NCBI GenBank assembly: GCA_964640155.1
Contig: CAZXEQ010000008.1
Span: forward strand, 63,242 to 95,241
Origin: an uncultured bacterium
GTDB lineage: Bacteria; Auribacterota; JACPWU01
Direction of reading: 5' to 3'
Length of the DNA: 32,000 bases
Shown here: positions 24,001-27,000 of the stretch, one piece after another
How positions within the stretch are numbered: the stretch's first letter is position 1
Layout of the letters: each line of letters starts with the position of its first letter
Position numbers: made by a program

Positions 24001-27000
24001 TAGTAACGGACTCATGGTTTTAATGCCCATGAGCTTGAGTTTGCCTTTTACAGAAAACACACAAAGCTTGAAAAATTCCACTGGCTCTCCTCTTAATATA
24101 TCCCAGAGGACTACTTCGCTGAGAGGGGATGGGGGAGTTATCGGATTAGAAAATAATTCTAGAAACAATGAAATCTTACCTCCCAATAATGGAGGTGATT
24201 CTTGGATTTCTCAGAATGGTACCGATTGGAAGGACTCTATCCGTCAATCGAATTTCCAATACGAAAAACAAATTACGAACATGCGCTATGACAAAAGTGG
24301 AAAACTTATTGGGGATAGCAGCATTACAAGATTATCTACTGGAGAAATTATTGAATCGACCCGAAGTGATATTGAATATAACGCGCTTGGTCAAATCACT
24401 TCTTTCTCCGAAAGTGGAAATTCTAATGCAAGCGGGAGTTATTCTTTTACGCGCACACAAGAACAAGACATTCTTGGACACATCACCTCTATCAAAGAAA
24501 AGGGAACAAGGGCTAATGGTGGAGCATACACATCAGAAGAGAACAATATAACCTATGATGACTTAGGAAAAAAACTTACCTATCAAAGAACTGAAACAGA
24601 TGACATGGGTAAACACATCACCAATAGAACATCAACAAACTATGATGCTCAAGGTCGAGTGAGTGGATATGAACAAAATACCATCGATGAATTTGCTAAT
24701 GGAAAACGTGCAACTGGAAAAGAAACTCGTTCCGCTATTCAATATGATGCCCAGAACAGAATAACCAGCTGGACATCTCACACCAATGGAACAGGGACAG
24801 ACGGCAAAGTTTTTGATATCACAACACAAACCCAAGTCCAAGTATTTGACTTTGCTGGTCGAGCTTCTCAATATACTGAAAATATTACAGATCATCGATC
24901 TACAGAGTCATTGCGAGCACAGCGAAGCAATCTCATTCATCAAACATACAATTCATTAGGCCAACTCTCATCTAAAGAAATAAGAGAACAGGGCCAAGAC
25001 AGCATCCGACAAACCTACAGCTATAACAATGGTGTGTTGAATCAAACACGCGTAGAACATCCTGATTACATCATTACATTGGACAAATGGGGCACACAAA
25101 CATCTATAGAAGAAGGTCCTCGCATTAAAGCAGCTAGAGAGCAAGCACGTAGAGCAGAAGAGCGGGCAAGAAAAGCACAAAAGGCTGCTTCAAATCTCAT
25201 GGCCCGATACAAAAAACAAATAGAACAAGAACTACTGAATCAAGCGCTAAAGGCAGTGGCCATTGATAAGTTCTCAGTAGCAAGTAAATCAATAAATACT
25301 GTGTCATTGCGAGGAGCAGCAGCGACGAAGCAATCTCAAACACTTCTTGCTCAATCCCAAAAATCCATGGCTCAAGCTAAGAGCGCCTTAGCTCAAGCTG
25401 AAAACCAAATCAGAAATGCAAAGACACAAAGCGCCAGGGCCCAAGCTGAAGCAGCCAAAAAGAGCGCTGAAACACAAATAGCTATTGCTCAGAAGAAAAT
25501 GGAAGAAGCAAAGAAAGCTATGATTAGTGCATCAGGGATAGCGAATCGTGGAAAAGATTTGTCATTGCGAGGAGCGCTAGCGACGAAGCAATCTCTAGAC
25601 AGAGCATTAGCTTCTTCTAGGTCTATGTCATCCTCGAAAGTTTCAGTCGGGGATCCATTCTCAAAAATAGATATCAGTAAATTCAAAATTATATTCAAAG
25701 GCAACACAGCTCAAATCAAAGATGCCAATGGCAATGTCTTAGCAGAGGCCAAAACCCAAGGGAAAACAGTTAAAATTAGCAATAATGTCACAGGCTCTAA
25801 AGTAGACATGAGCTATGGAAAATTTGGATTAGCAAGCCTCAAAGAAGTAAACAGCCTAGGTAAAGAAGTTAGAACTGAAAGCTATAACTACAAGACAGAT
25901 CGAACAGGAAAAGTCCAAGAACTCAATTATTTAATCAAAGACACAGAGCCCACATCTATTCAAACATCTCAAGGCGTTAAATCTGTCATAAGTAGAAAGG
26001 CTGTCTACGAAGCCAGTGGCACCATCAAACACGATGGCAAAGGCAGAGTAACTTCAAGTGAAGAGAATAAAACCTTAAAATCTGACAAAAAGACAATCTA
26101 TAGCTTCCATGAAGCCCTTACAGGGGTTCAATATGACAGACTCAACCAAATGGTTTCATTCCAGAAGCAAACCTCAGAGAAGGGCTTAGGCATCAAGAAA
26201 TACTCTACAACCATTACAAGAACAGGCGAAGTTGATAGCTCTGGAAAACTCTCTCATTACATTGAGAACGAAAGAACCAAACAAGGCAAAGTCAAAATCT
26301 CTCGCACATTCGAGGCAACGCCCACATATCAAGGCGATACACTTATATCTGAAAACAGAATCATGACCCATGAAAAGATCAAACAGAGCAGTGGGATCTT
26401 CCAAAGAATAGTTGGAATTGTTTTACCCATAGCCTTAGGCCTAATCCTTGCCCCTGTCACAGCAGGAATCAGTACAGCCTTAAGTGCAAGCATTGGCTCA
26501 GTAGGATCGCAAATGGTAGCCCATGGAGTCACAGGCTTCATGAGCAACATGGTTACATCTATTGCCATGGGAGCTAAGCCTAATGAAGCATTAAAGGGAG
26601 CACTTCTTACAGGAGGCATAGCAGGTATAGGAGCAGGAGCTAACATCTTTGGAAGCAAAATCTTTGGACTAAGCGTACAAACAGCCAAACAATCTCTTGA
26701 GTCCAGCGTAACAAGACAAATCATCACCCGCTCCATCATGAGTGCAGCAGGAGAAAAATTAGGACCTGTGGGCTCCGCAGTGCTAGGCGGAGCATTGTCA
26801 GGCGTCATGACAGGTGATCCGACACAAATAGCACTTGGTACCATTAAAGGAGCAGCTTCAGGCTTCATAGGTCAGGCATTAGGCAGTTCCACAGGAGCCC
26901 AGCTTGCCAATGCAGCTATTGGAGGCTTTACAGACGCAGCCATTGATCGAATTGGACAAGAGATTAAAACAATTGCGTATAACGTAAAGGCCCGAGACGC

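What the first reader, a model, noticed from the sequence alone, without database searches (positions are those of the whole stretch)
26387..26965. Second glycine-zipper hydrophobic region (module 2) with explicit GxxxGxxxG motifs
IVGIVLPIALGLILAPVTAGISTALSASIGSVG, LLTGGIAGIGAGANIFG, GSAVLGGALSGVMTG and GAASGFIGQALGSSTGAQLANAAIGGF sit in the same relative position as region 1, directly after the paralogous beta-domain and directly before cargo 2. A very similar composition and length has been conserved despite low sequence identity between the copies. That argues the hydrophobic tract is functionally required for each cargo rather than being incidental.
Basis: partly seen in the sequence, partly recalled or inferred. 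Interest (0 to 1): 0.6.

Follow-up and report, generated by a model that had tools for sequence, protein, structure and literature searches.

The report
Hydrophobic pre-toxin domain of rare polymorphic toxins
A roughly 190-residue greasy, helix-forming stretch inside a 7,589-residue exported repeat protein is a real, conserved domain of a very rare toxin-like family; it is kept in all seven known copies and is swapped together with the toxic tip, so it most likely inserts into a membrane to place or carry that tip.

Summary
Window 26387-26965 encodes residues 6688-6880 of one 7,589-aa ORF (6326-29095, +). The tract is Gly/Ala/Ser-rich and nearly charge-free, and it is paralogous to residues 4787-4997.

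It is a domain, not a linker. The same genome has two more copies, on contigs C4 and C11. A search of 1.84 billion representative proteins found only three further carriers, in two groundwater MAGs labelled Chlamydiae. All seven copies keep the tract. Two minimal proteins keep it while lacking the long YD-like arm, the coiled coil and most of the beta-domain.

DNA homology between module 2 and the C4 copy (82%) stops 27 nt before the tract. The tract therefore recombines with the cargo. Downstream genes co-vary with cargo type, as in polymorphic toxin/immunity systems.

AlphaFold2 predicts six helices at very low confidence. Hydrophobicity is marginal. Some GxxxG motifs are conserved, but "glycine zipper" describes only the C-terminal half and fits region 1 poorly. 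The tract is not directly before the variable cargo, because about 245 conserved YD-like residues intervene.

Best reading (0.5): a membrane-insertion or entry domain. There is no Pfam, NCBIfam or PDB match. Other agents of this scan had already noted the C4 and C11 copies.

The parts
6326..29095 (+). Giant ORF of 7,589 aa: Sec-type leader, about 4,300 aa of YD-like repeats, then two paralogous delivery modules each followed by a different C-terminal region
   Evidence: 59 Y[DN]xx[GN][RNQK] motifs. No Pfam or NCBIfam family above cut-off.
25041..26360 (+). Tract 82% identical in DNA to the C4 paralogue (junction, coiled coil, beta-domain 2). The homology ends 27 nt before the hydrophobic region, which marks a recombination breakpoint.
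   Evidence: blastn; beta-domain of module 2 against C4 copy 87% aa identity, against 22% in the N-half of the hydrophobic tract.
25676..26386 (+). Beta-domain 2 (aa 6451-6687): 18 long antiparallel strands, YD-repeat-like sheet
   Evidence: AF2 pLDDT about 90. Foldseek top hits are the teneurin-3 YD shell and TcB-TcC cocoons, E 4e-5 to 3e-4, with low TM-scores.
26387..26965 (+). Hydrophobic region 2 (aa 6688-6880), the finding: predicted all-helical, Gly/Ala/Ser-rich, marginally hydrophobic domain
26396..26659 (+). N-half of the domain (aa 6691-6778): most hydrophobic helix, second helix and third helix ALKGAxI..AAG. The sequence type is variable between copies: type A in module 2, P0005 and P0006; type B in module 1, C4 and C11.
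26699..26965 (+). C-half (aa 6792-6880): conserved motifs G[DE]KLGPVGSxVLGG, DPTxIxLGxIKGxASGF, ALGxSxGAQF, TDxxID
   Evidence: (42-60% identity among five copies)
26837..26863 (+). Conserved glycine zipper G6838xxxG6842xxxG6846 (present in 5 of 7 copies, absent in region 1)
26972..27703 (+). Post-hydrophobic conserved region (aa 6883-7126), beta-rich with YD-like hairpins (YYDKQxNF...). Shared with the C4, C11, P0005 and P0007 copies but not with cargo 1.
   Evidence: Secondary structure (low confidence).
27704..29092 (+). Variable C-terminal region of module 2. 55% identical to the C11 copy. Conserved GHSQxG, D..VGH and TPGH motifs (possible serine hydrolase, unconfirmed).
   Evidence: No Pfam or PDB match. 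AF2 unusable.
20684..21316 (+). Hydrophobic region 1 (aa 4787-4997), the paralogue in module 1
29092..29751 (+). 219-aa gene overlapping the giant ORF's stop codon. Leader with a conserved Cys. Homologue (42% identity, E 2e-53) follows the C11 copy, whose cargo is homologous to cargo 2. Candidate immunity protein.
   Evidence: No Pfam family.
29748..30929 (+). 393-aa Sel1-repeat protein with a leader, translationally coupled. Possible partner of cargo 1 (not tested).
   Evidence: Sel1, E 2e-92. Position.
26329..26868 (-). Antisense 179-aa ORF inside the region. No evidence that it is a gene.
   Evidence: No Pfam hit. The + frame is open for 22.7 kb and has protein homologues.

Best explanation
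Residues 6688-6880 form an alpha-helical, marginally hydrophobic membrane-insertion ("entry" or "pre-toxin") domain of a lineage-restricted, Sec-exported polymorphic toxin family.

Proposed mechanism:
1. The protein is exported by its N-terminal leader.
2. The helices are not hydrophobic enough to arrest in the producer's inner membrane, so they pass through. They may be shielded by the YD-like beta-sheets that flank them on both sides.
3. At the target membrane, the variable hydrophobic hairpin and the conserved Gly-rich helices insert.
4. Insertion either anchors the C-terminal enzyme-like tip at the bilayer or carries it across.

Shown here: the domain is conserved, modular, co-inherited with the cargo, predicted helical and borderline hydrophobic. 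The loci also have co-varying downstream partner genes.

Inferred: membrane insertion itself, which membrane is targeted, and whether the result is anchoring or translocation.
For: - Present in all 7 known modules. Found in only 2 of 79 genomes of the phylum as held, plus one further MAG.
- Kept in minimal proteins made of leader, short beta, tract, then cargo (P0007; circularised C11).
- Recombination breakpoint at its 5' border. The type of the N-half follows neither the beta-domain nor the cargo strictly, so it is a separable module.
- Six predicted helices in two independent AF2 runs.
- Kyte-Doolittle peaks 1.8-2.5, but Hessa-scale sums are never below 0. This is typical of segments that insert after translation rather than stop-transfer anchors.
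- Conserved Gly and small residues at i,i+4 spacing.
- Downstream genes co-vary with cargo, and those of three loci carry leaders. The cargo therefore acts or is neutralised outside the cytoplasm, at membranes or in the periplasm.
- Literature precedents for a hydrophobic or Gly-zipper segment upstream of a toxin being needed for delivery: Tde1 (PMC10240207) and CdiA-CT entry domains (PMC11630599). A YD shell chaperoning a hydrophobic payload: Tse5 (PMC10684867).
Against: - No experimental data.
- AF2 confidence for the helices is about 30 pLDDT, so no tertiary fold is known.
- No homology to any known translocation, pore or Gly-zipper family.
- Dedicated topology predictors (DeepTMHMM, TOPCONS) were not available. 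My hydrophobicity sums are crude.
- The cargo's enzymatic nature is unproven.
- The secretion route across the outer membrane and the target organism are unknown.
- Region 1 lacks the conserved glycine zipper, so that motif cannot be essential to all copies.
Confidence: 0.5

Rival explanations
1. The hydrophobic domain is itself a toxin: a pore-former or ionophore that depolarises the target membrane, like Tse5-CT, CdiA-CT(EC93), EsxX or TelE. The downstream region would then be a second activity.
For: - About 190 aa, all-helical, Gly/Ala-rich with GxxxG motifs, placed right after YD-type repeats as in Tse5 (PMC10684867; PMC11630599).
- P0005 and P0007 have a further Gly-rich hydrophobic segment in their cargo and are followed by membrane-protein partners.
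Against: - The partner genes co-vary with the C-terminal cargo, not with the type of hydrophobic tract. Module 2 (type A) and C11 (type B) share homologous cargo and partner.
- No small hydrophobic immunity-type gene accompanies the tract in the window, C4 or C11 loci.
- The tract is never terminal. It is always followed by at least 700 residues.
Confidence: 0.17
2. It is a set of ordinary transmembrane helices that anchor the protein in the producer's own inner membrane (stop-transfer after the Sec leader). This would fix the topology of arm and cargo on the cell surface or in the periplasm.
For: - Kyte-Doolittle peaks of 2.45-2.54 in module 2, module 1 and P0005 would be called TM helices by classical criteria.
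- Several other giant proteins of this genome have internal clusters of classical TM helices.
Against: - Hessa-scale sums are all above 0. In C4, C11 and P0007 no 19-residue window falls below +2.5 kcal/mol.
- The two tracts in one chain are separated by about 1,700 residues, which would demand a complicated topology.
- The conserved part is the least hydrophobic, Gly-rich half.
- The leader-bearing partner proteins imply the cargo is outside the cytoplasm.
Confidence: 0.18
3. It is a compositionally biased flexible linker with no specific function, conserved only in composition.
For: - Low AF2 confidence.
- Low identity between regions 1 and 2 (25-35%).
- No family match.
Against: - Invariant and near-invariant motifs across species (G[DE]KLGPxGS, ALGxS, TDxxID).
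- 13 conserved Gly columns, conserved length of 174-209 aa and retention in 7/7 copies.
- Profile E-values of 1e-47 to 1e-84 for the tract alone.
Confidence: 0.03

Closest known systems
Sec-dependent RHS/YD-repeat polymorphic toxin systems (Zhang, de Souza, Anantharaman, Iyer & Aravind 2012, Biol Direct 7:18; PMC3482391)
   Same: - Leader peptide, long YD-type repeat scaffold and variable C-terminal regions.
- An overlapping downstream gene that co-varies with the tip.
- Recombination between paralogous loci.
   Different: - No Pfam RHS_repeat hit above cut-off.
- No Rhs core PxxxxDPxGL motif, no PAAR and no VENN.
- A conserved ~190-aa hydrophobic helical domain and a second YD-like block lie between the scaffold and the tip.
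- Two complete modules sit in one polypeptide.
Tse5, the Pseudomonas aeruginosa T6SS Rhs effector whose shell encloses a hydrophobic pore-forming C-terminal fragment (PMC10684867; PMC9637101)
   Same: YD-repeat sheet next to a helical, membrane-active hydrophobic segment. The shell may act as a chaperone for a greasy payload.
   Different: - In Tse5 the hydrophobic fragment is the terminal toxin, released by Rhs autoproteolysis and delivered by T6SS.
- Here the tract is internal and followed by at least 700 residues.
- No T6SS sheath gene was found in the genome, and the proteins carry Sec-type leaders.
Glycine-zipper N-terminus of the Agrobacterium T6SS DNase Tde1 (Ali et al. 2023, EMBO Rep; PMC10240207)
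   Same: GxxxG repeats upstream of a toxin domain. They permeabilise the membrane and are required for delivery rather than for enzymatic activity.
   Different: - Tde1's motif is a short segment of a small T6SS effector bound by the adaptor Tap1.
- There is no sequence relation.
- Here the domain is about 190 aa with six predicted helices.
Cytoplasm-entry domains of CdiA-CT toxins (PMC11630599 and references therein)
   Same: A modular domain sits between the conserved delivery scaffold and the toxin. It travels with the toxin and is exchangeable between toxins.
   Different: - Entry domains bind specific inner-membrane proteins and are not generally hydrophobic.
- CdiA needs a TpsB partner and a VENN cleavage site. 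The VENN motif is absent from the protein. No TpsB (ShlB) match was found, but that search was uninformative because its control did not ring.
N-terminal transmembrane domains of prePAAR T6SS effectors, and translocation (T) domains of AB toxins (named from my own knowledge, not fetched)
   Same: Marginally hydrophobic helices that must be kept soluble before delivery and that insert into a target membrane to pass an enzyme.
   Different: - No PAAR or prePAAR motif. No Eag-type chaperone gene was looked for.
- No detectable sequence or fold similarity.

Membership tests
Polymorphic toxin system (sensu Zhang et al. 2012) | Conserved N-terminal or scaffold part joined to alternative, unrelated C-terminal tips among paralogues and orthologues | tested here: met
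   Cargo 1, cargo 2/C11, C4 and P0005/P0007 tips are four unrelated types behind a homologous module.
Polymorphic toxin system (sensu Zhang et al. 2012) | Cognate gene immediately downstream that co-varies with the tip (immunity) | tested here: met
   The 219-aa (window) and 214-aa (C11) genes are 42% identical, E 2e-53. The P0005 and P0007 partners are 41% identical, E 9e-35. C4 has a different partner. Protective function was not tested.
Polymorphic toxin system (sensu Zhang et al. 2012) | Demonstrated toxicity of the tip | not testable with these tools
   Only conserved GHSQxG, D..VGH and TPGH motifs. No Pfam or PDB match.
Rhs / YD-repeat proteins (Pfam PF05593, TIGR01643) | Significant matches to RHS/YD repeat models | tested here: inconclusive
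   PF05593 best E 0.14 at 13 bits, below the 22-bit cut-off. TIGR01643 scores 15.8 bits, exactly at its cut-off, E 0.015. 59 YD-like motifs by regex. Foldseek of the beta-domain hits teneurin and TcB-TcC at E 4e-5 but with TM-scores at or below 0.12.
Rhs / YD-repeat proteins | C-terminal core with PxxxxDPxGL aspartyl autoprotease motif demarcating the toxin | tested here: not met
   No P....DP.G match in the protein. DPxG[LWIVM] occurs only at aa 1418 and 1454, far from either cargo.
Glycine zipper motif ((G/A/S)xxxGxxxG, Kim et al. 2005, from my own knowledge) | Motif present in a hydrophobic helix and conserved among homologues | tested here: met
   Region 2 has 4 GxxxGxxxG against 0.83 expected (p 0.018). 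G6838xxxG6842xxxG6846 is conserved in 5/7 copies, and region 1 has none. The feature is therefore met for region 2, not for the whole family.
Pfam glycine-zipper domain families (Gly-zipper_Omp, Gly-zipper_OmpA, Gly-zipper_YMGG, Rick_17kDa_Anti) | HMM match | tested here: not met
   No such family was reported at E up to 10 for 26387-26965. The only weak hit was ApoL, E 0.75.
T6SS prePAAR/Rhs effectors | PAAR domain and a T6SS in the genome | tested here: not met
   No PAAR string in the protein. No TssC/VipB match in the 97%-complete genome.
Integral membrane (stop-transfer) TM helices | Predicted insertion free energy at or below 0 for a 19-23 residue segment | tested here: not met
   The simple Hessa-scale sum is at best +0.31 (region 1) and +1.26 (region 2). 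No window falls below +2.5 in C4, C11 or P0007. This is a crude, position-independent version of the scale.

The most novel reading that the evidence does not exclude
The tract is a previously undescribed, self-sufficient translocation domain. A hydrophobic helical bundle is stored between two YD-type beta-sheets that act as a mini-cocoon. It opens at a target membrane and carries a large folded-on-arrival enzyme across it without a T6SS, CDI or Tc-type injection machine. Two such devices have been strung in one polypeptide to deliver two different enzymes.
Probability: 0.15. Interest if true: 0.75.

Novelty: new variant of a known kind. Interest (0 to 1): 0.5.

Why it matters
How exported polymorphic toxins that lack a dedicated injection machine get their tips to or across a target membrane is poorly understood.

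This family offers a compact test case. There are minimal proteins of about 1,000-1,300 aa made only of a leader, the hydrophobic domain, a short YD block and a tip. These could show whether a marginally hydrophobic helical domain is enough for membrane delivery.

The family also shows how such a module is shuffled with its cargo and can be duplicated in tandem inside one giant protein.

The domain has no match in Pfam, NCBIfam or the PDB. It is known from only three metagenome-assembled genomes, so it would define a new domain family.

Tried and rejected
- Pfam and NCBIfam scans of the tract, both modules, both cargos and the neighbours found nothing except Sel1 repeats in the 393-aa gene.
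- PDB sequence and profile searches of the tract, both cargos and the lipase-like end found nothing.
- The search for homologous proteins with the C4 protein returned only itself.
- The search for related loci found no relatives in genome contigs with A1 or in metagenome contigs with A4. Alignments A2 and A3 were too divergent for that tool.
- The second AF2 job (tract, post-domain and cargo 2) gave mean pLDDT 38.8. I judged it unusable and did not send it to fold search.
- hhalign of the tract profile against the Gly/Ala-rich hydrophobic segment of the 17,802-aa YD giant on C7 showed no homology, probability 0.3%.
- I considered chlamydial Inc-type bilobed hydrophobic domains, because the type-B N-half looks like a 40-residue hairpin. 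I did not file the tract there. The proteins have cleavable-looking Sec leaders, the tract is about 190 aa, and the organism's chlamydial identity is doubtful. No ATP/ADP translocase was found (control silent), and only 79 genomes are held in its phylum.
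Full report
**What is there**

It is residues 6688-6880 of one 7,589-aa ORF at 6326-29095.

The ORF starts with a Sec-type leader (KKFIASLLSILQLFWSIPEDLFAQ). About 4,300 residues of YD-like hairpins follow, with 59 Y[DN]xx[GN][RNQK] motifs. No Pfam or NCBIfam model reaches its cut-off anywhere in the protein. The best are RHS_repeat at E 0.14 and TIGR01643 at exactly its 15.8-bit cut-off.

A BLASTP self-comparison shows that residues 5977-6923 are a paralogue of residues 4074-5028 (32% identity over 1,017 columns, E 4e-125). Each module has the same order of parts:
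- a ~250-aa repeat unit
- an EHPDYI junction
- an Ala/Gln/Lys-rich coiled coil
- a ~235-aa beta-domain
- a ~200-aa hydrophobic tract

**Is it more than chance?**

- The two tracts are the only places in 7,589 residues where a 19-residue Kyte-Doolittle mean exceeds 1.4. The peaks are 2.54 and 2.45.
- Region 2 is 16% Gly, 14% Ala and 10% Ser, with 21 charged residues in 202. Region 1 is similar.
- GxxxG is modestly over-represented against composition-preserving shuffles (9 against 5.4+-2.0, p 0.06). GxxxGxxxG is more so (4 against 0.83, p 0.018). Region 1 has no GxxxGxxxG.
- In a seven-sequence alignment, 13 of 190 columns are conserved Gly and 36 are conserved small residues. Conserved small columns are enriched only at i,i+4 spacing (11 against 6.6, p 0.03).
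- G6809xxxG6813 is invariant. G6838xxxG6842xxxG6846 is kept in 5 of 7 copies.

The region is therefore real and non-random. "Glycine zipper" describes only its C-terminal half and does not hold for region 1.

**Relatives**

A profile of beta-domain plus tract finds four copies in the window's own 2.44-Mb, 97%-complete genome:
- the two in the window
- a 1,493-aa protein on contig C4
- a copy on contig C11

The same profile, run against 1.84 billion representative proteins, gives six hits. Five are true relatives. One is the window protein and one is the C4 protein. Three are new: P0005, P0006 and P0007. The sixth hit is an unrelated repeat protein.

P0006 and P0007 come from a groundwater MAG titled "Chlamydiae bacterium". 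P0005 comes from another MAG.

The tract profile alone hits only the window's genome and one same-family genome among the 79 genomes held for the phylum. The module profile does the same among 61 relatives. This is a very rare, lineage-restricted domain. There is no match in Pfam, NCBIfam or PDB sequences.

**The tract is the constant part**

- P0007 is a leader, about 40 residues, one beta-hairpin (INEHREMT), the tract, then the cargo.
- Contig C11 has a 19-nt terminal overlap. When circularised, its ORF becomes about 1,044 codons. It has the family's leader, the last ~75 residues of the beta-domain, the tract and then the cargo.
- The C4 protein has a leader followed directly by the junction, with no long arm.

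The arm therefore varies from 0 to 4,300 residues, and the coiled coil and most of the beta-domain can be absent. The tract is present in 7 of 7 copies. No homologue with the beta-domain but without the tract was found.

**The tract travels with the cargo**

The C4 gene and module 2 are 82% identical in DNA over window 25041-26360. The homology stops 27 nt before the tract.

At protein level, their beta-domains are 87% identical. The N-half of the tract is only 22% identical. By contrast, module 2 is 68% identical to P0005 there.

The N-half comes in at least two types:
- type A in module 2, P0005 and P0006, with a 13-residue insertion
- type B in module 1, C4 and C11

P0007 is distinct from both. 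The C-half is uniformly conserved, at 42-60% identity among five copies.

**What follows the tract**

The variable tip does not follow at once. First come about 245 conserved residues with YD-like hairpins (YYDKQxNF...PDNQ...). These are shared by module 2, C4, C11, P0005 and P0007 but not by cargo 1. The hydrophobic helices are therefore embedded between two YD-type beta blocks.

The tips fall into four unrelated types.

The genes immediately downstream co-vary with the tip:
- The 219-aa gene overlapping the giant ORF's stop is 42% identical (E 2e-53) to the 214-aa gene after the C11 copy. The C11 tip is 55% identical to cargo 2.
- The P0005 and P0007 tips (42% identical) are followed by homologous membrane proteins (41% identical).
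- C4 has a different tip and a different, leader-bearing 427-aa partner.

This is the pattern of polymorphic toxin/immunity systems.

The lipase idea for cargo 2 rests only on the conserved GHSQxG, D..VGH and TPGH motifs. Pfam, PDB and AF2 give no support.

**Structure**

AF2 on a seven-sequence alignment models the beta-domain confidently (pLDDT about 90, 18 long antiparallel strands). The best Foldseek hits are the teneurin-3 YD shell and the TcB-TcC cocoons (E 4e-5 to 3e-4, low TM-scores).

The tract is predicted as six helices, at protein residues 6691-6722, 6724-6747, 6752-6778, 6792-6829, 6833-6852 and 6856-6892. The pLDDT is about 30, so no tertiary fold can be claimed. A second run again gave helices.

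Position-independent Hessa-scale sums over 19 residues are never negative. The best are +0.31 for region 1 and +1.26 for region 2. No window falls below +2.5 kcal/mol in C4, C11 or P0007. These are marginally hydrophobic helices, not strong stop-transfer anchors.

**Mechanism**

The best-supported reading is a membrane-insertion or entry domain that belongs to the exchangeable toxin unit. It would be exported via the leader and kept soluble, perhaps by the flanking YD sheets. It would then insert into a target membrane to anchor the tip there or pass it across.

Leader-bearing partner proteins suggest the tips act outside the cytoplasm.

Published precedents:
- the Tde1 glycine zipper, required for translocation (PMC10240207)
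- modular CdiA-CT entry domains (PMC11630599)
- the Tse5 Rhs shell, which chaperones a hydrophobic payload (PMC10684867)

The genome has no T6SS sheath gene but has three secretins. The route across the outer membrane is unknown.

Rivals:
- The tract is itself a pore-former. The partner genes follow the tip rather than the tract type, and the tract is never terminal, which weakens this.
- It is an ordinary inner-membrane anchor of the producer. The hydrophobicity figures weaken this, as does the fact that the conserved part is the least hydrophobic.
- It is a mere linker. The conservation effectively refutes this.

**Novelty**

The concept is known: a hydrophobic or Gly-zipper pre-toxin segment, and a polymorphic toxin with an immunity gene. 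The domain family is undescribed, and so are its embedding between YD blocks and its tandem use in one polypeptide. I rate it a new variant of a known kind. Earlier agents of this scan had already described the C4 and C11 copies as rare Rhs-like polymorphic toxins, which agrees with this report.

**Limits**

- All relatives are MAGs.
- Taxonomy is uncertain. NCBI labels the relative "Chlamydiae", but no TLC transporter was found (control silent) and only 79 genomes are held for the phylum.

Noticed in passing
whole genome G000 (e.g. C7:15772-69177, C2:216550-265101, C7:104978-134113, C1:14609-42883): This 2.44-Mb genome carries at least 12 open frames longer than 4,000 codons. The longest are 17,802 and 16,184 codons. 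Together they make up roughly 13% of the genome.
   Followed up: partly
G000:C7:15772-69177, aa about 7363-7530: The 17,802-aa YD-rich giant also has a Gly/Ala-rich hydrophobic segment right after YD-like repeats. hhalign finds no homology to the tract studied here (probability 0.3%), so it may be a convergent architecture.
   Followed up: partly
G000: C2, C7 and C1 giants: Several other giant proteins have deep internal clusters of classical Leu/Ile/Phe-rich transmembrane helices, for example aa 6034-6406 and 7668-7921 of the 9,425-aa protein on C1.
   Followed up: no
G000:C11 (11,366 bp): The contig ends overlap by 19 nt. Joining them completes a ~1,044-codon toxin-like gene with the family leader. 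The contig also carries HTH and an 856-aa ORF (C11:5793-8363) next to the HTH gene, so it is probably a small circular element.
   Followed up: partly
G000:C4:2268-2322 and C11:1-55: 55 nt are 100% identical between the C4 gene's beta-domain and the start of C11. The flanks are much less similar. This could be a recent conversion tract or an assembly seam.
   Followed up: no
L005 1547-3220 and L010 4924-6779 (GCA_016196885.1): In the related MAG, both family members (P0007, P0006) lie directly downstream of phage-integrase genes. P0006 also lies near a primase. This suggests carriage on integrative elements.
   Followed up: no
window 6326-6400; C11 joined ORF; P0006 and P0007 N-termini: The leader peptides of the family are themselves homologous (xxILSSLLAxxQIFWxxPxxxxA). 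This is more conserved than a generic signal peptide needs to be.
   Followed up: no
genome level: The relative's NCBI title says Chlamydiae. However, no ATP/ADP translocase (PF03219) was found and only 79 genomes are held for the phylum. The lineage may not be a typical chlamydia. The PF03219 control was silent, so this is weak evidence.
   Followed up: partly
window 1-6129 (+): A second giant gene (3,669 codons in the contig, C8:58361-69367) ends 196 nt upstream of the toxin-like ORF. It has a leader, no Pfam hit and no internal hydrophobic cluster.
   Followed up: no
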